This document shows positions 17,584-22,725 of a stretch of 22,725 nt of DNA, piece by piece (the stretch's first letter is position 1; every line of letters starts with the position of its first letter). Location of the stretch: NCBI GenBank assembly GCA_023480925.1, contig JAMCWY010000020.1, positions 1-22,725 of the forward strand, given 5' to 3'. The notes beneath the pieces were generated by a model. That model was not told the DNA's origin and made no database searches. It saw nothing but the letters and a program-made list of their open reading frames with translations. The stretch comes from Patescibacteria group bacterium (GTDB lineage: Bacteria; Patescibacteriota; Minisyncoccia; UBA6257; HR35). A program made the position numbers and the translations under genes.

Positions 17584-18924
17584 TTATTTTTCAGAATTAT
17601 ATAAAGTTTGAATCTCGGCAGCGGTCAGGGGACGATTATAATATTGAACTTCTCTAATGTCGGCGGTCGGTGAATACCAGCAATTATTGCCGCTACTGTC
17701 GACCCAGGCGGAAATATGGAACCCGCCGCTTGAATTTATTGTTGAAATAAGCGAAGAAGTTCCGATTAAATTGCCGTCAAGATAAAATTTGCCAAGACTG
17801 CCGTTGTAGGTTCCGGTTAAAAAGTGCCAAGCGGGAAGAGTCGTTGTTGTTCCAATTTCGTAAAAATTGCCATTTTGAAAGTAAGAAAAATAACCGTAAC
17901 CGCCGGAACTGTTGCTATACAAAGAAACATTGCAAGATGTTGACGTTGGCGTTGAATGATAAGGAATTTCAAGCAAATTGCCGTTATTGAAGGAAGTCTC
18001 GTAAACCCAAGCAGCGATGCTGTTGTTGGTTGAGATGTTTGGCGTGGAACTGACGAAAACATAATTTTGGGAAGAGCTTGAAAAGCTTAACGCGGCTTTG
18101 TTGCTAATGGTAACCCATTGAGGCAGACAGCTTTGGCATGTTGATGAAGCGGCGGTTAAGGTTCCATTATTATTATAACCGGAAGTGTCTTGAGCGATTA
18201 AACCGCTGCCGTCATTCAAGGGCCAGTGTCCGATTAAACCAAAAGCAAAAGTGTCGGCTGGCAATTCTCTTAATAAAATTTGAGGAACTTGAAAAGCTAA
18301 GGATAGGTTCGTGCCGATTTCATAATAATTCCAACTTAAACCTCCGTCTTGACCGGCGCCGGATTTTAGACCGGTGTTATTCGAATATTCAAGTTTAGCC
18401 GCGAATTCATAACCGCCGTTGACAATATAAGTATAGTAATAAGGTGGATTGTTACTTGGGTCAACGGGCAGTTGGTTTAAATTAATCATCGTGTCAGAGG
18501 CAAAGTTGATTGGCAGCCAGCCCGTGCCATTGGTATTTTTATAGTTGGCGGTTGAAACGCAGTTGTAAGTCCAACCCGAAGGCAGCGTTGGCAGTTGGTT
18601 TGACCAAGCGCCGCAAGTCGAGGAGGTATCCGGAAGCGAGGTGTAAACGATCGAAGAAGTGCCGATGAAATTAGCCGGGTTGTCTATTAAATATATATTA
18701 ACGGCGTTATTAATATTACTCAGGTCGGTCATTCTTTGAGCGTCTCTGGCTTTGGCGAAAATTAAACCTGGTTTTAAAATAAGAATTAAGACCGCGGCCA
18801 AGATGGCGATGATCGATAAGACGATTAAAATTTCAATCAGAGTAAAACTCTTTTTTTTAATCTTAAGAAGGATTTTTCGATAATTTAAATTATTTTTTCT
18901 GAAAACAAGTTGGTTAACTTTCAT
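17584..18924 (-). CDS. Type IV pilin-like (prepilin N-terminal cleavage/methylation domain) protein with a C-terminal LamG/concanavalin-A-like lectin domain
   Basis: KKKS-FTLIEILIVLSIIAILAAV class III signal-like segment followed by AKARDAQRMTDL. The C-terminal half has GHWPLNDGSGLIAQDTSGYNNNGTL ... YLDGNLIG ... YYNRPLTAAEIQTLY, typical LamG-domain hallmarks. Confidence 0.75.
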   Translation of the reverse strand: MKVNQLVFRKNNLNYRKILLKIKKKSFTLIEILIVLSIIAILAAVLILILKPGLIFAKARDAQRMTDLSNINNAVNIYLIDNPANFIGTSSIVYTSLPDTSSTCGAWSNQLPTLPSGWTYNCVSTANYKNTNGTGWLPINFASDTMINLNQLPVDPSNNPPYYYTYIVNGGYEFAAKLEYSNNTGLKSGAGQDGGLSWNYYEIGTNLSLAFQVPQILLRELPADTFAFGLIGHWPLNDGSGLIAQDTSGYNNNGTLTAASSTCQSCLPQWVTISNKAALSFSSSSQNYVFVSSTPNISTNNSIAAWVYETSFNNGNLLEIPYHSTPTSTSCNVSLYSNSSGGYGYFSYFQNGNFYEIGTTTTLPAWHFLTGTYNGSLGKFYLDGNLIGTSSLISTINSSGGFHISAWVDSSGNNCWYSPTADIREVQYYNRPLTAAEIQTLYNSEK

Positions 18925-19193: not shown

Positions 19194-20663
19194 ATGAACA
19201 ATACTCTGAAACCATTTAAAAATATGACACGACGAGAATCTATATTAATAATCGTTGGCGTCGTTTTTGTTGTCGTAGCGGCTTTAATTTTTCTTAGAAT
19301 ATATAATAATTCGACGGAAATGTCCTCCAAAGAAGTCGGAATACACAAAATTCAGCATGTTATAGTTATATTTCAGGAAAACAGATCTTTTGATTCATAT
19401 TTTGGCGCTTATCCAGGGGCCGACGGTATCCCTATGAAAAATGGCGTTTCAACGGTTTGCGTACCCGATCCAGTAAGCGGTGCGTGTGTCAAGCCGTACG
19501 TAGATCATAACGATAGCAATCATGGCGGGCCGCATGACGCCTCAGCTTCAGCCGTAGATATAAATAACGGTAAATTAGACGGTTTCATTAAAGAAGCGGA
19601 AAGAGGCAAAAAGGATTGTCGCAATGTCACTAGCCCGAATTGTAGCCTAAGCAACTCTACCGATGTGATGGGGTATCATACGGAAAGCGACATACCTAAT
19701 TATTGGGCTTATGCCCGAAACTTTGTTCTTCAAGATCATATGTTTGAATCTGTTCATTCTTGGAGTTTCCCTTCTCATCTTTTTTTGGTTTCAGATTGGT
19801 CGGCAGATTGTACTGATCCACAAAATCCTCTTTCTTGCACGAGTTCTTTGATGCCAAACGACAGGAGTCAGAAAGATCTGGAGCCGTTTGGCTGGACAGA
19901 CTTAACTTATCTTCTTAATAAAAATGGCGTCTCGTGGGCTTATTACCTTGATGGTGGCGCCGGTCCTCTAGAAACTGTCGGGAAAAAAACCTCCAACAAA
20001 CAGGCCAGGCCCAAAAACAAAACCTCCCAAAAAGCCAGAGAGCTTAATAAAAAGAGTGGCGTACCTGAGATTTGGAATGTCCTGCCCGGTTTTGTAGATG
20101 TGCACCAAGATAATCAAATTAGTAACGTTAAGAATCTAAATGAATACTTTGTTGCAGCTAAAGACGGGACTCTGCCAGCCGTCTCCTGGATTGTGCCTAA
20201 TGCCAAAGACAGCGAGCACCCGCCGGCTTTGGTTAGTGATGGTCAGTCTTATGTGACACGTATCATCAATGCCGCTATGAAAAGTCCTGATTGGCCGAGT
20301 ACCGCTATTTTTCTAACTTGGGATGATTGGGGTGGATTTTATGACCACGTTCTGCCGCCTCAGATTGACAGTTTGGGTTACGGTATCCGGACGCCCGGTC
20401 TCGTCATTAGCCCTTATGCCAAGAAAGGCTACATTGACCACCAAGTTTTGAGTTTTGATGCTTACTCAAAATTTATAGAAGACGATTTTATGAACGGTCA
20501 GCGTTTGAATCCAAAAACAGATGGCCGACCCGACAGTCGTCCCGACGTTAGAGAAAACAGTTCAATACTTGGAAATCTCTTAAACGATTTTGATTTCAAT
20601 CAAAGTCCAAGACAGCCACTAATTTTGCCGGTGAATCCGACAACCACACTAATTAATAAATGA
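19194..20663 (+). CDS. Phosphoesterase family protein (phospholipase C / acid phosphatase AcpA family), membrane anchored
   Basis: HVIVIFQENRSFDSYFG and TWDDWGGFYDHV motifs characteristic of PF04185-type phosphoesterases. N-terminal TM helix. Internal Lys-rich low-complexity insert. Confidence 0.8.
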   Translation: MNNTLKPFKNMTRRESILIIVGVVFVVVAALIFLRIYNNSTEMSSKEVGIHKIQHVIVIFQENRSFDSYFGAYPGADGIPMKNGVSTVCVPDPVSGACVKPYVDHNDSNHGGPHDASASAVDINNGKLDGFIKEAERGKKDCRNVTSPNCSLSNSTDVMGYHTESDIPNYWAYARNFVLQDHMFESVHSWSFPSHLFLVSDWSADCTDPQNPLSCTSSLMPNDRSQKDLEPFGWTDLTYLLNKNGVSWAYYLDGGAGPLETVGKKTSNKQARPKNKTSQKARELNKKSGVPEIWNVLPGFVDVHQDNQISNVKNLNEYFVAAKDGTLPAVSWIVPNAKDSEHPPALVSDGQSYVTRIINAAMKSPDWPSTAIFLTWDDWGGFYDHVLPPQIDSLGYGIRTPGLVISPYAKKGYIDHQVLSFDAYSKFIEDDFMNGQRLNPKTDGRPDSRPDVRENSSILGNLLNDFDFNQSPRQPLILPVNPTTTLINK

Positions 20664-20845
20664 AAGGCGCAGAAAACTGATGCGGCGTTTGTCCAGTCAA
20701 GTTTACTTCTATCACTTTGTTATGTGATGCCGCGCCGGAAAACGACAACCGCGCGGGTGACGGAATTCGTTTGGACGGCTCGCGAGCAAAAAATTTTCCT
20801 CCCCCCTTCGCCCCCTCCATTTTTTGCCCGTTCGCTCAAGAACTC

Positions 20846-20874
20846 TTGCATAAAGTATTGATTTACTGTATATT
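20846..20874 (+). promoter_or_regulatory. Near-consensus sigma70-type promoter of the radical SAM cassette
   Basis: TTGCAT (20846..20851), a 17-nt spacer, then TATATT (20869..20874), about 80 nt upstream of ATG 20957. Confidence 0.55.
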
Positions 20875-20895
20875 ATTCTTAGATATTATTCTTAG
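20870..20895 (+). repeat. Perfect 13-bp tandem direct repeat (ATATTATTCTTAG x2) overlapping the -10 and start-site region
   Basis: 20870..20882 equals 20883..20895, and the next three bases (ATA) begin a third unit. Confidence 0.85.
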
Positions 20896-20896
20896 A

Positions 20897-20919
20897 TAGA
20901 AACTCATGATGAGTTTCTA
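20897..20919. promoter_or_regulatory. Perfect palindrome TAGAAACTCAT-G-ATGAGTTTCTA: candidate operator or 5'-UTR hairpin
   Basis: 11-bp arms are exact reverse complements around a single central base. It lies between the predicted -10 and the RBS (AAAGGA at 20944..20949). Confidence 0.6.
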
Positions 20920-20956
20920 GAAAATTGAGTACATTTACAACAGAAAGGAACCTGCA

Positions 20957-22396
20957 ATGGCACTTAATTTCAACGTCGCCTATGTGAAGTCGCCGTTCAT
21001 GCAGGTCGTCCGGGACGGCGACTCTGCGGTGATCTGGCATTCGCTGTTTGGTTACCCCAAAGTCGTCTCTGCTGAGACGCTTGAGTTTCTTCAATCGTTC
21101 TCGGAGCCGACAACGATCCGCTCGCAACTCGGCGATGAACTGAATAATGAAGATCGAGAGATGATTGAGGAACTGTTGCGGTGTTATTCCCTCATCCTTG
21201 AGGATTTCAACGACCGAGCGTTTCTCGAAGAAAAGATGCGGGAACGCGAAGCGGAAATCGTCAACGGTTCGCTGATTGATTATCTCGAGCTCATTGTGAG
21301 TGAGGCGTGCAACTTCCGCTGTACCTACTGCATCCACTTCAACAATCTGGAAACTTCGGACCGTATCAACAACCCAAAGAAGTTTATGCGGTTTGAGACA
21401 GCCAGGGAGACAGTGGATCGCTATCTCAAGATACTCCGCGACCACGGAAAACGCACCGCCGAAATCAATTTTGGTGGGGGCGAACCGTTGCTGGCATGGC
21501 CGGTTATCAAGCAAGTACTCGAATACTGCCGTGCTACTTACGGCTCGGAATTCGAGTTCCGCTTCTCTATCAACACGAATGCTTCGCTCATCACGCCGGA
21601 GATCGCCGCGACTCTCAAAAAATTCCACGTCGAAATTGCCTCCAGTCTTGATGGCTTGCGCGAAGGGAATGACCGCGTTCGACTGACAAAGTCGGGAGGC
21701 AGCACATTCTCCCAGATCATGCGTGGTTTCGAAGCGTTAGGTCAAGTGGGATACCCGCTTGATGGCGTCGCGGTAACGATCATTGAAAAAAATTTTCACC
21801 AGCTTGATGAGTCGATTATCGACTGGGCAGTATCTCGCGGCATGAAGAATGTCAGAATCGATATCGACGTAGTCGACATAGTGGAAATCCCAGTCGAGGA
21901 AGTGGTCACAAAACTGATGCGTATTCGACGCTACGCGGCGGCACGAGGAGTTGATGTTCCTGATTTTTGGTCTCGACCAGCCGAGAACCTCAACGAATCA
22001 ACGCTCGAAAGCCGCGTTGCGTTCTGTGGCGCAGTTCGCGGCAACAGCATGTGCGTAGGCCCATCCGGGAATATCTACGGATGCGGTTACAGCACAACCC
22101 AACTCGGCAATCTCTCTGAAATCCAATCGTTTCATGCGCCTGGCACTGCTTATCATCGCTTTGTGATAGATCATCTCACCGGAGTGATGGAGATGTGCAA
22201 GGGTTGTATGATCGAGGGGCAGTGTGGCGGTGGTTGTAACATCACGCAAGAGTTCGCTCGGGCAACAAAAACTGCCAAAATCGAACGAACGTGTGACTTC
22301 TATCGTCGTATGACCCAAGAGATTCTCCGAGAACAACTGCGGGAAGCGACGGCGCCAAAGCTAGAACTTCTCCAAGCTGCAACAGAAAGGAGGTGA
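20957..22396 (+). CDS. Radical SAM / SPASM-domain peptide-modifying enzyme with an N-terminal PqqD-like (RRE-type) extension
   Basis: The radical SAM motif CNFRCTYC (C118/C122/C125) comes after a roughly 115-aa N-terminal domain (DSAVIWHSLFGYPKVVSAETLEFLQSF...REMIEELLRCYSLI) that looks like a beta-strand and winged-helix RRE. It also has the GGGEPLL motif. A full SPASM signature is present: C..MCVGPSGNIYGCG then CKGCMIEGQCGGGC (CX2CX5CX3C) and a final C in ERTCDFY. Confidence 0.9.
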   Translation: MALNFNVAYVKSPFMQVVRDGDSAVIWHSLFGYPKVVSAETLEFLQSFSEPTTIRSQLGDELNNEDREMIEELLRCYSLILEDFNDRAFLEEKMREREAEIVNGSLIDYLELIVSEACNFRCTYCIHFNNLETSDRINNPKKFMRFETARETVDRYLKILRDHGKRTAEINFGGGEPLLAWPVIKQVLEYCRATYGSEFEFRFSINTNASLITPEIAATLKKFHVEIASSLDGLREGNDRVRLTKSGGSTFSQIMRGFEALGQVGYPLDGVAVTIIEKNFHQLDESIIDWAVSRGMKNVRIDIDVVDIVEIPVEEVVTKLMRIRRYAAARGVDVPDFWSRPAENLNESTLESRVAFCGAVRGNSMCVGPSGNIYGCGYSTTQLGNLSEIQSFHAPGTAYHRFVIDHLTGVMEMCKGCMIEGQCGGGCNITQEFARATKTAKIERTCDFYRRMTQEILREQLREATAPKLELLQAATERR

Positions 22397-22401
22397 ATGT
22401 C

Positions 22402-22506
22402 ATGCAGAAGGCACAGCAGAAGCAGCCGCGGCCGGCTCTCAAGGTCAAGGCGCTGCCGAAGCTGAAGGCGCTGATGACTTGTCGGCGCCCCAGTAACTGC
22501 CACTAA
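22402..22506 (+). CDS. Unannotated 34-aa ORF, candidate RiPP precursor peptide: MQKAQQKQPRPALKVKALPKLKALMTCRRPSNCH
   Basis: The ATG lies 5 nt after the maturase stop, and AAGGAGG (22387..22393) is 8 nt upstream. The G+C-rich composition matches the maturase. Two Cys fall in the last 8 residues. It is below the 60-aa cutoff of the supplied ORF track. Confidence 0.6.
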   Translation: MQKAQQKQPRPALKVKALPKLKALMTCRRPSNCH

Positions 22507-22561
22507 GCGTGGCTTCACGGGGCTAAGGAAAAGTATTACACCTACCTTACCCATTTTATTT

Positions 22562-22725
22562 ATGAATAAAATTTATTTAAGAAAAATTAAATACATCGAT
22601 AAAAAATATTTTGCAAAATGGTGGAGAGATAAGGAACTGCTTAAATTAACAAGTGGTATTTTGAAACGTATTTCGGACCAAGAAGTTGATAAATATTTTC
22701 AAATTATTTTAAAAAGTAAAGACAG
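22562..22725 (+). CDS. 5' part of an AT-rich host-type gene, possibly a GNAT-family N-acetyltransferase (3' end outside the window)
   Basis: MNKIYLRKIKYIDKKYFAKWWRDKELLKLTSG... resembles the LRP..D...L..W.ND.EV.KY N-terminus of RimJ/RimL-like GNATs. Only 54 codons are visible. Confidence 0.35.
   Translation, partial: MNKIYLRKIKYIDKKYFAKWWRDKELLKLTSGILKRISDQEVDKYFQIILKSKD

What the first reader, a model, noticed from the sequence alone, without database searches (positions are those of the whole stretch)
22402..22506. Precursor-like peptide has a strongly basic, acid-free leader with a KAL-type repeat and a tiny C-terminal core
**Seen in the sequence**
- The peptide has 9 Lys/Arg plus a C-terminal His, and no Asp or Glu.
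- The stretch ALKVKALPKLKAL has an amphipathic spacing.
- The only Cys residues are at positions 27 and 33 (C-x5-C), and the peptide ends in Cys-His.

**Why it is unusual**
- Many RiPP leaders are acidic or neutral, so an all-cationic leader is atypical.
- An alternative reading is that the mature product keeps the cationic helix and acts as a membrane-active peptide with a cross-linked C-terminal cap.

**Competing frame**
- A second frame starts at ATG 22397 (MSCRRHSRSSRGRLSRSRRCRS*). Its start is only 3 nt from the SD, so it is disfavoured.
Basis: partly seen in the sequence, partly recalled or inferred. Interest (0 to 1): 0.7.

Follow-up and report, generated by a model that had tools for sequence, protein, structure and literature searches.

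The report
Conserved modified-peptide gene pair in Patescibacteria
The 34-codon reading frame is a real, strongly conserved gene for a small peptide that sits directly behind a peptide-modifying radical SAM enzyme in about 120 loci from ultra-small (Patescibacteria/CPR) bacteria, and I found no description of this peptide-enzyme pair.

Summary
ORF 22402-22506 encodes MQKAQQKQPRPALKVKALPKLKALMTCRRPSNCH.

**The gene is real.** A homologous small ORF follows the homologous radical SAM gene in every one of about 121 loci that hold downstream sequence. Its C-terminal core T-C-x-x-P-S-N-C is almost invariant, while third codon positions vary freely. Synonymous to nonsynonymous single-base differences are 4979:1520 in this frame. 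The competing 22397 frame gives 368:2402 and carries stops.

**The partner enzyme.** It has an N-terminal peptide-recognition (RRE-like) domain, a CxxxCxxC core and an eight-cysteine SPASM domain. The closest solved structure is the cyclopropylglycine synthase TigE, but that family's defining Tyr is an invariant Phe here. No curated family cutoff is reached.

**Other anatomy.**
- A terminator-like hairpin follows the peptide gene in 41 of 45 loci.
- The next gene is usually a nucleotidyltransferase or a GNAT acetyltransferase; the GNAT replaced part of the nucleotidyltransferase gene in place.
- Composition and identity levels indicate horizontal spread among Patescibacteria.

**Verdict.** This is most likely a precursor-maturase pair of an undescribed RiPP-like family. 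The chemistry is unknown, with a thioether crosslink the leading guess. The amphipathic-helix reading is not supported: the pattern is strand-like.

The parts
20777..20839 (+). Conserved upstream element at the left edge of the cassette. It is a hairpin-like dyad (GCAAAAAAT...ATTTTTTGC) with a CCUCC-rich loop.
   Evidence: It is homologous to stretches upstream of the radical SAM gene in L001, L003, L017 and L041. It occurs as an inverted copy about 1 kb downstream of the radical SAM gene in L001 and L016. In L001 it lies inside a 210-nt, 97% complementary inverted repeat that brackets the cassette. Its function is unknown.
20846..20874 (+). Putative promoter, TTGCAT-17 nt-TATATT.
   Evidence: Read from the sequence. 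The block is conserved in L002, L003, L017 and L041. The consensus scan did not list it, because the -35 hexamer matches only 3 of 6 positions. Treat it as tentative.
20897..20919 (+). Perfect palindrome TAGAAACTCAT g ATGAGTTTCTA, 37 nt before the radical SAM start. It could be an operator or a 5'-UTR hairpin.
   Evidence: Arms of 8-11 nt are found at the same position in L002, L017 and L008. L008 has compensating changes (TAGAGATT...AATCTCTA). Arms of 8 nt or more occur in 4 of 28 loci against a 2% shuffle frequency. It is seen only in a subset of loci.
20957..22396 (+). Radical SAM/SPASM peptide-maturase gene (479 aa). It has an RRE-like domain at about residues 1-85, CxxxCxxC at C118/C122/C125, and SPASM cysteines C357, C366, C376, C414, C417, C423, C427 and C446.
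   Evidence: - Pfam Radical_SAM matches at 2e-18.
- 64 NCBIfam peptide-maturase models match, all below their cutoffs; the best is PapB at 137 bits against a cutoff of 340.
- The PDB profile hit to TigE (8VPO) covers the full length at E 8e-49.
- The AlphaFold model has pLDDT 75.6, and Foldseek gives TM 0.74/0.79 to TigE.
- 364 homologues at 65-89% identity come from many Patescibacteria lineages.
22389..22395 (+). Shine-Dalgarno sequence GGAGGTG of the peptide gene, overlapping the radical SAM stop codon.
   Evidence: A GGAGG-type motif lies a few bases upstream of the peptide start in nearly all of 45 loci.
22402..22476 (+). Leader part of the peptide gene (M1-M25). It is basic, contains the LKVKAL/PKLKAL repeat, and carries the L-P-K-x-K-V-L motif.
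   Evidence: Alignment A3, charge table, strand-type alternation.
22477..22506 (+). Core part of the peptide gene (T26-H34, TCRRPSNCH) plus the stop codon.
   Evidence: C(-8), S(-4), N(-3) and C(-2) are identical in 48/48 genome loci, with third-position entropy of 0.6-1.0 bit. The S-N-C motif is present in 71 further metagenome loci; one more has T-N-C and one has a different spacing.
22519..22561 (+). Terminator-like hairpin (GGGGCTAAGG ... CCTTA--CCC) followed by ATTTTATTT. It lies between the peptide stop and the next gene's ATG.
   Evidence: Hairpin plus T-run with dG of -10 or lower occurs in 41 of 45 loci, against 9 of 225 shuffles. The stems differ between clades, which indicates compensatory change. 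The window copy is weakened by a 2-nt gap in the 3' arm (total dG -12.6). The consensus scan did not list it.
22562..22725 (+). 5' part of a GNAT acetyltransferase gene (MNKIYLRKIKYIDKKYFAKWWRDKELLKLTSG...), cut off by the contig end.
   Evidence: Full-length homologues of about 160 aa in L004, L006-L009, L011, L013, L014, L016 and others match Pfam Acetyltransf_3/Acetyltransf_1. The nearest PDB sequences are AAC(6'), streptothricin and spermidine acetyltransferases. The window is a complete 22,725-bp contig.

Best explanation
The 34-aa ORF is the precursor peptide of an undescribed radical SAM-modified peptide family (RiPP-like) that occurs mainly in Patescibacteria (CPR).

**Shown**
- The peptide gene and the upstream radical SAM/SPASM gene form a conserved unit. 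In most loci the peptide's ribosome-binding site sits at the end of the enzyme gene, and a terminator-like hairpin follows the peptide gene.
- The peptide has a variable, mostly cationic leader. The leader has a strand-type L-K-V-K-x-L-P-K-x-K-V-L pattern.
- The peptide has a near-invariant nine-residue core, T-C-x-x-P-S-N-C-x.
- The enzyme has the three-part build of RiPP maturases: an RRE-like winged helix, a radical SAM barrel and a SPASM domain with eight Cys.

**Inferred**
- The leader docks as an extra strand on the RRE-like domain.
- The core is placed at the SAM cluster, and the enzyme abstracts a hydrogen atom from a core residue to make an intramolecular crosslink.
- My leading guess (about 40%) is one or two Cys thioethers to a carbon of Asn32, Ser31 or Thr26, as in ranthipeptides and sactipeptides.
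- Alternatives are anSME-like oxidation of Cys or Ser, or a new C-C or C-S chemistry.
- The gene after the terminator is a nucleotidyltransferase in about 42 loci, a GNAT in about 38, and occasionally a methyltransferase or an MFS transporter. It most likely tailors or neutralises the product (self-protection) and is expressed by read-through. This step is the weakest.
- In the window's clade the cassette has moved horizontally between Patescibacteria lineages.
For: **Peptide conservation**
- The peptide is present behind the enzyme gene in 48 genome and 73 metagenome loci. The only loci without it are contigs that end at or inside the enzyme gene.
- Coding signature: 4979 synonymous against 1520 nonsynonymous single-base differences in frame, versus 882:6222 and 1935:5411 in the other two frames. 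Cys, Ser, Asn and Cys are invariant with free third positions.
- Over the full length, the in-frame count is 1731:704 against 368:2402 for the rival frame.

**Enzyme**
- Full-length homology to TigE (E 8e-49), which includes its RRE (PMC10878394).
- The AlphaFold model shows a beta3-alpha3 N-terminal domain with pLDDT 85-93.
- The best Foldseek matches are TigE, CteB, anSME, ChlB, SkfB and SuiB, all peptide- or protein-modifying SPASM or related radical SAM enzymes.
- All strong NCBIfam matches are RiPP maturases.

**Cassette anatomy**
- Terminator-like hairpin in 41/45 loci, with compensatory stem changes between clades.
- The peptide plus terminator is kept as an intact unit even when inverted behind the nucleotidyltransferase (L025, L121).
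- It is also kept when the next gene is convergent (L034, L118, L133, L151).
- Census of the third gene.
- GNAT-type loci retain the 3' 320 nt of the nucleotidyltransferase gene.

**Horizontal spread**
- The radical SAM protein is 85-89% identical to homologues from MAGs labelled Magasanik-, Ryan-, Brenner- and Saccharibacteria (83% for Portnoy- and Peregrinibacteria). The window's CTP synthase finds nothing above 68%.
- The radical SAM gene plus peptide gene have 47-54% GC regardless of flank GC (30-53%).
- Nucleotide homology stops at the cassette edges.
Against: - No experiment shows translation or modification.
- No leader protease or dedicated exporter is conserved next to the cassette, so release and export of a mature product are unsupported.
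- The chemistry cannot be read from sequence. The closest solved relative makes cyclopropylglycine, not thioethers.
- The eight-Cys SPASM resembles anSME, in which (to my knowledge) the substrate Cys does not ligate a cluster.
- The third gene lies behind a terminator and has a very different GC content (23-36% against about 52%). Its link to the peptide may be co-transfer rather than function.
- Electrostatic matching of leader and RRE was tested and not found.
- The window's cassette sits at a contig end with a GC shift, so a local assembly join cannot be excluded for this one contig. Other loci lie deep inside long contigs.
Confidence: 0.75

Rival explanations
1. **Peptide-derived cofactor or intracellular metal/redox ligand.** The core (two Cys plus Ser/Asn, often His) would be modified and used inside the cell, as with mycofactocin or PQQ. 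The nucleotidyltransferase would add a nucleotide handle.
For: - No protease or exporter is conserved in the cassette.
- In host-associated Saccharibacteria the three genes sit in a fixed place among housekeeping genes: rpsL, rpsG, gap, rpiB, rpe ... SpoU, leuS, nusB, rnc, rpsP.
- The core is extremely constant.
- A SPASM enzyme acting on a peptide's C-terminal residues resembles MftC and PqqE (own knowledge).
Against: - Distribution is patchy: 53 loci among 185,579 species genomes, found with exact-pattern seeds and therefore a lower bound.
- The cassette spreads horizontally.
- It decays in some strains: the radical SAM gene is split in L085, and the peptide is frameshifted in P0156.
- The nucleotidyltransferase is replaceable by a GNAT.
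- No partner oxidoreductases are conserved nearby.
Confidence: 0.12
2. **Regulatory leader peptide.** The small ORF would be a ribosome-sensing leader, as in ermCL, cat or tnaC. Translation or stalling near its stop would mask the terminator and switch on the downstream resistance-like gene (Lnu/ANT-like nucleotidyltransferase, AAC-like GNAT or Erm-like methyltransferase).
For: - A terminator-like hairpin starts 0-31 nt after the stop codon in 41/45 loci, and in many loci the next gene's start codon follows the T-run closely.
- The downstream genes belong to families typical of drug-modifying resistance enzymes.
- Arrest peptides are also conserved at the amino-acid level (own knowledge).
Against: - The ORF is tied to the radical SAM gene in every locus, not to any one downstream gene.
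- It is retained with its terminator when the next gene is convergent (MFS in L034, L118, L133) or when the unit is inverted (L025).
- The tail length after Ser-Asn-Cys and the distance from stop to hairpin both vary.
- I did not test for an alternative anti-terminator pairing.
- The enzyme has a peptide-recognition domain that would otherwise lack a substrate.
Confidence: 0.07
3. **Unmodified cationic antimicrobial peptide.** This is the first reader's alternative: the cationic segment forms an amphipathic helix that acts on membranes, with the Cys pair as a cap.
For: High net positive charge in most members. The hydrophobic/basic pattern is real.
Against: - The helical hydrophobic moment is 0.09, below the shuffle mean of 0.28. 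The pattern peaks at 180 degrees.
- A Pro lies in the middle of the segment (38 of 48 genome loci).
- The leader is the variable part and the core is the constant part, the opposite of what a helix-driven activity predicts.
- There is no signal peptide and no exporter.
Confidence: 0.03
4. **Not a gene.** The stretch would be conserved only as RNA or DNA, for example the 3' UTR and terminator of the radical SAM gene.
For: Most gene callers miss it. Only about 40 called proteins in 5.8 billion match the peptide profile, and none is named.
Against: - Substitutions are strongly biased towards synonymous changes in exactly this frame.
- Length differences among the homologous ORFs (24-47 aa) keep this frame open.
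- A GGAGG-type motif lies a few bases upstream of the start in nearly all loci.
- No stop occurs in this frame in any locus.
Confidence: 0.02

Closest known systems
TigE/TvgB radical SAM cyclopropylglycine synthases (PDB 8VPO; PMC10878394)
   Same: It is the best sequence and fold match over the full length: RRE, radical SAM barrel and SPASM (E 8e-49; TM 0.74/0.79). It is also a single-enzyme RiPP system with a short precursor.
   Different: - The family-defining G-Y-W motif, whose Tyr ligates auxiliary cluster I, reads [G/D]-F-W here with an invariant Phe337.
- An extra invariant Cys366 appears where TigE has Ser.
- TigE-type precursors carry repeated Val/Ile motifs (TVGG, TIGSVS). This peptide has one non-repeated Cys-containing core.
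- Foldseek sequence identity is only about 19%.
PapB-type ranthipeptide maturases and CteB/SCIFF thioether maturases
   Same: PapB is the best NCBIfam model match (E 1e-39), and CteB is the second-best structure match. Both use Cys-containing precursors and an RRE + radical SAM + SPASM enzyme. Like SCIFF loci (own knowledge), this cassette has no dedicated protease or exporter.
   Different: - Scores are far below the family cutoffs: 137 against 340 bits, and 92 against 425.
- The core has no Asp or Glu acceptor (PapB uses Cys-X3-Asp/Glu).
- It has two Cys rather than six.
- It has eight SPASM Cys rather than an open auxiliary-cluster site.
- The precursor lies downstream of the enzyme gene.
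Anaerobic sulfatase-maturating enzyme (anSME)
   Same: The SPASM cysteine set is complete with eight Cys. The substrate motif has Cys followed by Pro-Ser (C-x-P-S-R in sulfatases, from own knowledge, against C-x-x-P-S-N here). The fold matches at E 1e-10.
   Different: anSME has no RRE and acts on whole sulfatases. The spacing of the motif differs by one residue and Arg is replaced by Asn. The TIGR03942 score is 100 bits against a cutoff of 349.
Mycofactocin (MftA/MftC) and PQQ (PqqA/PqqE) peptide-derived cofactors
   Same: A short peptide whose conserved C-terminal residues are the substrate of a SPASM radical SAM enzyme that uses an RRE (own knowledge).
   Different: No MftB/D/E/F or PqqB/C homologues are present. 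The RRE is fused to the enzyme. The distribution is patchy and horizontally transferred.
Self-immunity by product modification, as with microcin C MccE/RimL-type GNATs and ANT/Lnu nucleotidyltransferases
   Same: The third gene is either an Acetyltransf_3/RimI/AAC(6')-like GNAT or an ANT/Lnu-like Pol-beta nucleotidyltransferase. One replaced the other in place.
   Different: No substrate is known. All family scores are below cutoffs. The gene lies behind a terminator and has a different base composition.

Membership tests
RiPP precursor + RRE-dependent radical SAM/SPASM maturase (general kind) | Radical SAM CxxxCxxC cluster motif | tested here: met
   C118-x3-C122-x2-C125, each conserved in at least 90% of 47 aligned homologues. 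Pfam Radical_SAM matches at 2e-18.
RiPP precursor + RRE-dependent radical SAM/SPASM maturase (general kind) | C-terminal SPASM domain with 7-8 Cys for two auxiliary clusters | tested here: met
   C357, C366, C376, C414, C417, C423, C427 and C446 are invariant. This region aligns to the TigE SPASM domain. Cluster binding itself was not tested.
RiPP precursor + RRE-dependent radical SAM/SPASM maturase (general kind) | RiPP recognition element (winged helix, three strands plus three helices) | tested here: met
   The AlphaFold model shows strands 8-11, 15-20, 23-28 and 35-38, then helices 39-46, 54-58 and 64-75, with pLDDT 85-93. The sequence aligns to the TigE region that the crystal structure defines as its RRE. 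No Pfam PqqD hit was found. Binding was not tested.
RiPP precursor + RRE-dependent radical SAM/SPASM maturase (general kind) | Adjacent short ORF with a variable leader and a conserved core, under purifying selection | tested here: met
   About 121 loci carry it. The core is near-invariant and the leader varies in length and sequence. The synonymous:nonsynonymous count is 4979:1520.
RiPP precursor + RRE-dependent radical SAM/SPASM maturase (general kind) | Enzyme actually modifies the peptide | not testable with these tools
   This needs co-expression and mass spectrometry.
Cyclopropylglycine synthases (TvgB/TigE) | G-Y-W motif with Tyr ligating auxiliary cluster I | tested here: not met
   The aligned position reads D-F-W in the window and G-F-W in the family consensus. 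F337 and W338 are invariant (motif from PMC10878394).
Cyclopropylglycine synthases (TvgB/TigE) | Precursor with repeated Val/Ile-containing motifs | tested here: not met
   There is a single core, T-C-x-x-P-S-N-C, with no conserved Val or Ile in it.
Ranthipeptides (PapB family, NF047865) | Maturase reaches the curated model cutoff | tested here: not met
   136.7 bits against a cutoff of 340.
Ranthipeptides (PapB family, NF047865) | Cys-X3-Asp/Glu acceptor motifs in the precursor | tested here: not met
   The core of the window peptide and of nearly all homologues has no Asp or Glu.
Ranthipeptides / sactipeptides | Thioether from Cys sulfur to a beta/gamma (ranthi-) or alpha (sacti-) carbon | not testable with these tools
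   Two invariant Cys and invariant Asn and Ser make it plausible. Nothing was measured.
SCIFF (TIGR03974 maturase) | Maturase cutoff reached and a six-Cys precursor | tested here: not met
   92.1 bits against a cutoff of 425. The peptide has 2 Cys in the window and 2-3 in most homologues.
Anaerobic sulfatase maturase (TIGR03942) | Model cutoff reached and a C/S-x-P-x-R substrate motif | tested here: not met
   99.8 bits against a cutoff of 349. The core reads C-x-x-P-S-N.
Known anti-phage defence systems (PADLOC) | Match to a defence-system protein model beyond generic domain similarity | tested here: not met
   Only the generic radical SAM core matched pVip, and only the generic nucleotidyltransferase domain matched PDC-S09.

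The most novel reading that the evidence does not exclude
The cassette makes a chemically new product. The enzyme is sister to the cyclopropane-forming TigE family but has swapped the Tyr cluster ligand for Phe and regained a Cys. It could install a crosslink type not yet seen on the C-x-x-P-S-N-C core. The product could then be nucleotidylated or acetylated by the third gene. On this reading it is a mobile effector or signal that ultra-small episymbiotic Patescibacteria use towards their hosts or competitors. That would make it the first characterised natural-product pathway specific to the CPR.
Probability: 0.2. Interest if true: 0.85.

Novelty: new variant of a known kind. Interest (0 to 1): 0.62.

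Why it matters
- **Gap in knowledge.** Patescibacteria have tiny genomes and are usually reported to hold few or no biosynthetic gene clusters; one survey states its Patescibacteria MAGs contained none (PMC11613949).
- **What is here.** A compact, strongly conserved peptide-enzyme pair is present across many CPR lineages. It is fixed in a housekeeping neighbourhood in host-associated Saccharibacteria and horizontally mobile in groundwater lineages.
- **Why it has been missed.** The peptide is almost never called by gene finders, and it matches no curated family.
- **Why it is testable.** The enzyme and a 34-aa substrate with four or five invariant residues are all that is needed for a reconstitution experiment.
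- **Enzymology.** The enzyme is a natural variant of the TigE active-site architecture, which bears on how SPASM auxiliary-cluster ligation steers chemistry.
- **If the third gene is an immunity or tailoring enzyme.** The in-place swap of nucleotidyltransferase for GNAT would be a clean example of non-orthologous replacement inside a minimal gene cluster.

Tried and rejected
- **Electrostatic matching of leader and RRE.** The window's RRE has net charge -8 and the leader +7, but across 45 loci there is no correlation (rho 0.10, p 0.5) and some RREs are basic. Rejected as a general rule.
- **Amphipathic helix.** The helical hydrophobic moment is below random. Rejected.
- **The 22397 frame.** Rejected.
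- **Peptide family look-ups.** NCBIfam gave nothing at E up to 10 and Pfam nothing at E up to 0.01. Exact-sequence look-up found most variants absent from a 15-billion-protein collection.
- **Literature.** The string 'PSNCH' and combinations of Patescibacteria, Saccharibacteria or CPR with radical SAM, SPASM, ranthipeptide or nucleotidyltransferase returned no description of this cassette. That library lacks most subscription papers.
- **Phage carriage.** No close relative was found in IMG/VR; all hits are at or below 33% identity.
- **Defence-system models.** Only generic domain hits.
- **Rfam.** Only a tRNA-Tyr elsewhere in the window.
- **Consensus promoter/terminator scan of the window.** It missed the hairpin after the peptide gene, because this copy has a bulge.
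- **Extending the window.** The exact radical SAM protein is otherwise found only on a 1.6-kb contig, and the window is a whole contig.
- **AFDB fold search.** Not available.
- **SPASM region alone against PDB.** Only TigE aligned. The comparison with anSME cluster ligands therefore rests on my own knowledge.
Full report
**1. The observation**

The ORF at 22402-22506 (+) encodes MQKAQQKQPRPALKVKALPKLKALMTCRRPSNCH. It has six Lys, three Arg and a C-terminal His, and no Asp or Glu. Its only Cys are at positions 27 and 33.

A GGAGGTG ribosome-binding site (22389-22395) overlaps the stop codon of the preceding 479-codon ORF (20957-22396). The gap from GGAGG to the ATG is 8 nt. The competing ORF at 22397-22465 exists as described.

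**2. The upstream gene**

The preceding ORF is a radical SAM/SPASM enzyme.
- Pfam Radical_SAM matches at 2e-18.
- 64 NCBIfam models match, the strong ones all peptide maturases, but none reaches its curated cutoff. The best are PapB at 137 of 340 bits, nif11-type at 107 of 519, anSME at 100 of 349 and SCIFF at 92 of 425.
- A profile of 47 homologues hits the crystal-structure sequence of TigE (8VPO) over its whole length (E 8e-49), then CteB and anSME.
- An AlphaFold model (pLDDT 75.6) has an N-terminal domain of strands followed by three helices (residues 8-75, pLDDT 85-93). This is the winged-helix RRE layout.
- The whole model superposes best on TigE (TM 0.74/0.79), then on CteB, anSME, ChlB, SkfB and SuiB.

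TigE is a methyl-cyclopropylglycine synthase. Its family is defined by a G-Y-W motif whose Tyr ligates auxiliary cluster I (PMC10878394). In the alignment that Tyr corresponds to Phe337, which is invariant in this family. An invariant Cys366 stands where TigE has Ser.

The SPASM region therefore has eight Cys. To my knowledge this is the fully Cys-ligated pattern of anSME. The enzyme is a relative of TigE, not a member of its family.

**3. Is the small ORF a gene?**

The enzyme has 364 homologues at 65-89% identity, almost all from Patescibacteria MAGs.

I fetched 53 loci from species-representative genomes and 80 from metagenomes. Every locus that has sequence downstream of the enzyme gene carries a homologous ORF of 24-50 codons. 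That is 48 genome loci and 73 metagenome loci. The seven without it are contigs that end at or within the enzyme gene.

In the 48 genome loci, over the last 16 codons:
- Cys(-8), Ser(-4), Asn(-3) and Cys(-2) are identical in all 48.
- Thr(-9) and Pro(-5) are present in 46.
- Third positions of the four invariant codons vary, with entropy of 0.6-1.0 bit.
- Single-base codon differences are 4979 synonymous to 1520 nonsynonymous in this frame. The other two frames give 882:6222 and 1935:5411, and they contain stops in 31 and 15 sequences.

Over the whole length of the 34-codon class, the peptide frame gives 1731:704. The 22397 frame gives 368:2402, has stops in all 22 sequences, and keeps its ATG in only 14.

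A GGAGG-type site precedes the start in nearly all loci.

**4. Anatomy of the peptide**

The constant part is T-C-x-x-P-S-N-C followed by one to three variable residues. His is the most common tail, but G, K, R, T, S, HKS, SKS, RH, KH, HKN and NK also occur. One locus has Thr for Ser, and one has a different Cys spacing. The terminal His is therefore not essential.

The leader varies in length and sequence but keeps an L-K-V-K-x-L-P-K-x-K-V-L theme. The 'KAL repeat' is a real internal repeat, and one relative has three units.

Net charge is +3 to +11 in the 45 loci tabulated, but a few members are nearly neutral.

The hydrophobic/basic pattern is strand-like, not helical. The hydrophobic moment is 0.09 at 100 degrees (shuffle mean 0.28), its maximum is 0.60 at 180 degrees, and a Pro sits in the middle. 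This fits a leader that adds a strand to the RRE sheet, which is the usual mode. It does not fit a membrane-active helix.

An acidic RRE does not explain the charge. Leader and RRE charges are uncorrelated (rho 0.10), and some RREs are basic.

**5. What follows the peptide gene**

A hairpin plus T-run begins 0-31 nt after the stop in 41 of 45 loci (dG of -10 or lower), against 9 of 225 shuffles. Two more loci (L013, L035) have an evident hairpin sequence but no T-run. The stems differ between clades while pairing is kept.

In the window the 3' arm has lost two bases (GGGGCTAAGG ... CCTTA--CCC, 22519-22552, then ATTTTATTT), so the copy is weaker. In many loci the next gene's ATG follows the T-run closely.

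I classified the next gene in 93 loci with at least 900 nt of downstream sequence:

| Next gene | Loci |
|---|---|
| Pol-beta-type nucleotidyltransferase, about 220-245 aa, distantly ANT/Lnu/MntA-like | about 42 |
| GNAT acetyltransferase, about 160 aa, Acetyltransf_3, nearest to AAC(6'), streptothricin and spermidine acetyltransferases | about 38 |
| SAM methyltransferase first | 8 |
| Convergent MFS transporter | 3 |
| Other | 2 |

The window has the GNAT type, cut by the contig end at 22725. GNAT-type loci (L004, L006, L007, L016) still carry the last 320 nt or so of the nucleotidyltransferase gene behind the GNAT. The GNAT therefore displaced the 5' part of an ancestral nucleotidyltransferase gene in place.

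All distant Saccharibacteria loci fetched in this search have the nucleotidyltransferase.

**6. Mobility**

- The window is a complete 22,725-bp contig of an NCBI 'Patescibacteria group bacterium' MAG.
- Its CTP synthase finds no non-self relative above 68% identity. The labelled ones are Harrison-, Brenner-, Wolfe- and Ryanbacteria.
- Its radical SAM protein is 85-89% identical to proteins from MAGs labelled Magasanik-, Ryan-, Brenner- and Saccharibacteria, and 83% to Portnoy- and Peregrinibacteria MAGs.
- In this close clade the radical SAM gene plus peptide gene have 47-54% GC whatever the flanks have (30-53%). The third gene has 23-36%.
- Nucleotide homology between loci stops at the cassette edges.
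- In L001 a 210-nt, 97% inverted repeat brackets the three genes. Part of it is present at 20777-20839 in the window.
- No close relative is on IMG/VR viral contigs.
- More distant clades have cassette GC equal to flank GC. In host-associated Saccharibacteria the cassette sits at a fixed place between housekeeping genes.

The family is old in some lineages and recently transferred in the window's clade.

**7. Mechanism**

*Shown.* There is a conserved gene pair with the build of a RiPP precursor and its RRE-dependent radical SAM/SPASM maturase. In most loci the peptide's ribosome-binding site lies at the end of the enzyme gene.

*Inferred.*
- The leader docks on the RRE as a strand.
- The core reaches the SAM cluster.
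- Hydrogen abstraction leads to an intramolecular crosslink.

Because the invariant residues are two Cys, Asn, Ser/Thr and Thr, I favour thioether formation at about 40%. Candidates are Cys27 to Asn32 (C-x4-N, compare C-x4-T in SCIFF and N-x-x-C in streptococcal ranthipeptides, from own knowledge) and possibly Cys33 to Thr26.

The anSME-like eight-Cys SPASM and the C-x-x-P-S motif keep Cys/Ser oxidation open. The kinship to TigE keeps new C-C chemistry open.

The third gene comes from enzyme classes known for modifying amines and hydroxyls of antibiotics. One class replaced another in place. I read it as tailoring or self-protection, with low confidence. It lies behind a terminator and differs in composition.

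**8. Rivals**

- **Regulatory leader peptide.** The ORF could control the downstream resistance-like gene by attenuation. This fits the ORF-terminator-gene layout. It fails where the next gene is convergent (L034, L118, L133, L151), and where the peptide-terminator unit is inverted yet intact (L025, L121). It would also leave the RRE enzyme without a substrate.
- **Peptide-derived cofactor.** This fits the lack of protease and exporter and the housekeeping location in Saccharibacteria. It does not fit the patchy, mobile distribution or the decayed copies (L085, P0156).
- **Plain cationic antimicrobial peptide** and **non-coding element.** Both are contradicted.

**9. Known or new**

- No curated NCBIfam or Pfam model covers the peptide, and none accepts the enzyme.
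- Only about 40 called proteins in 5.8 billion match the peptide profile, and all are unnamed.
- Six literature searches found no description.
- One survey explicitly reports no biosynthetic clusters in its Patescibacteria MAGs.

Within the limits of those libraries, this is an undescribed family of a known kind. Its unusual traits are:
- a TigE-like enzyme with the Tyr ligand lost and a Cys regained;
- the precursor placed downstream of the enzyme gene and followed by a terminator;
- a nine-residue core;
- a swappable nucleotidyltransferase or GNAT partner;
- horizontal spread among CPR bacteria.

**10. Caveats**

- Nothing here shows translation, binding or modification.
- MAG labels such as Omnitrophica, Gammaproteobacteria, Anaerolineales and Pseudonocardiaceae on some loci were not verified and may reflect binning or labelling errors. 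L022 does have 62% GC flanks, so a non-CPR host is possible there.
- The window's cassette lies at a contig end next to a GC shift.

Noticed in passing
window 20777-20839; L001 3721-3930 and 6358-6567; L016 2323-2402: A conserved element with a CCUCC-rich hairpin loop lies upstream of the cassette. In L001 it is part of a 210-nt, 97% inverted repeat that brackets the radical SAM gene, the peptide gene and the nucleotidyltransferase gene. An IS-like transposase ORF lies nearby at L001 7120-8409 (-). L016 has the inverted copy about 1 kb downstream of the radical SAM gene. These could be the ends of a mobile unit.
   Followed up: partly
L002 3630-3705, L004 2520-2590, L020 3414-3485, L023 3651-3738, L041 3290-3364, L006 6609-6683: In 6 of 24 scanned loci a tRNA gene lies within about 250-650 nt of the cassette. 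The tRNAs differ (Thr, Gly, Thr, Ser, Gly, Asn). This could indicate tRNA-adjacent integration or could be chance in compact genomes.
   Followed up: no
window 20897-20919: A perfect 11-nt-arm palindrome lies 37 nt before the radical SAM start. The same dyad is present in L002 and L017, and L008 has compensating changes. Other loci have shorter, different dyads at a similar distance.
   Followed up: partly
L030 8312-8714: This Azambacteria genome carries an intact radical SAM-peptide-nucleotidyltransferase cassette. A second, degraded piece lies 3 kb away behind hisS. It holds the last 15 nt of a peptide gene, the intergenic hairpin region and an 88-aa GNAT fragment. It is a relic of a GNAT-type cassette.
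   Followed up: partly
L085 5624-6966; protein P0156: These are decayed copies. In L085 the radical SAM gene of a Saccharibacteria strain is split into 331-aa and 35-aa pieces. P0156 is a frameshifted peptide gene (…CICQGLTTATSQWQLYRG).
   Followed up: no
P0137; L104 and L105 peptide genes: The leader carries three copies of the K-V-K-A-L unit (MQKAQPKQRPVFKVKALLKVKALPKLKVLCTCQQPSNCH). The leader repeat can therefore expand.
   Followed up: no
L034, L118, L133, directly after the peptide terminator, minus strand: In one lineage the gene next to the peptide is a convergent 394-aa MFS transporter (Pfam MFS_1, 1e-31) instead of a nucleotidyltransferase or GNAT. It could be an exporter or an efflux-type immunity protein, or an unrelated neighbour.
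   Followed up: partly
L022 (contig DATATE010000211.1, 128 kb, labelled Pseudonocardiaceae): The cassette is present with 62% GC flanks, and the peptide has a 13-residue N-terminal extension. This may be an instance outside Patescibacteria, or a mislabelled contig.
   Followed up: no
window 20879-21628 (-), 21300-21686 (+), 21998-22336 (-), 22300-22554 (-): Long ORFs lie in other frames or on the antisense strand of the radical SAM gene. I take them to be shadow ORFs of a GC-richer gene and did not treat them as genes.
   Followed up: no
window 17584-18924 (-) and 19194-20663 (+): The neighbours of the cassette are a type IV pilin-like protein with a Laminin_G_3 domain (N_methyl motif) and a phosphoesterase-family protein (PC-PLC/acid phosphatase-like). 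The rest of the contig encodes DsbA-like, LemA, M48 and M50 peptidases, a P-type ATPase, two SIMPL proteins, GT2/PIG-L, LPG-synthase-like and CTP synthase proteins. None of these is conserved next to the cassette elsewhere.
   Followed up: partly
many loci (for example L002, L003, L007, L009, L013, L016, L017, L041) and the window itself: Contigs often end within about 2 kb of the cassette. This would be expected if the near-identical cassette shared by co-occurring strains breaks assemblies. It was not tested statistically.
   Followed up: no
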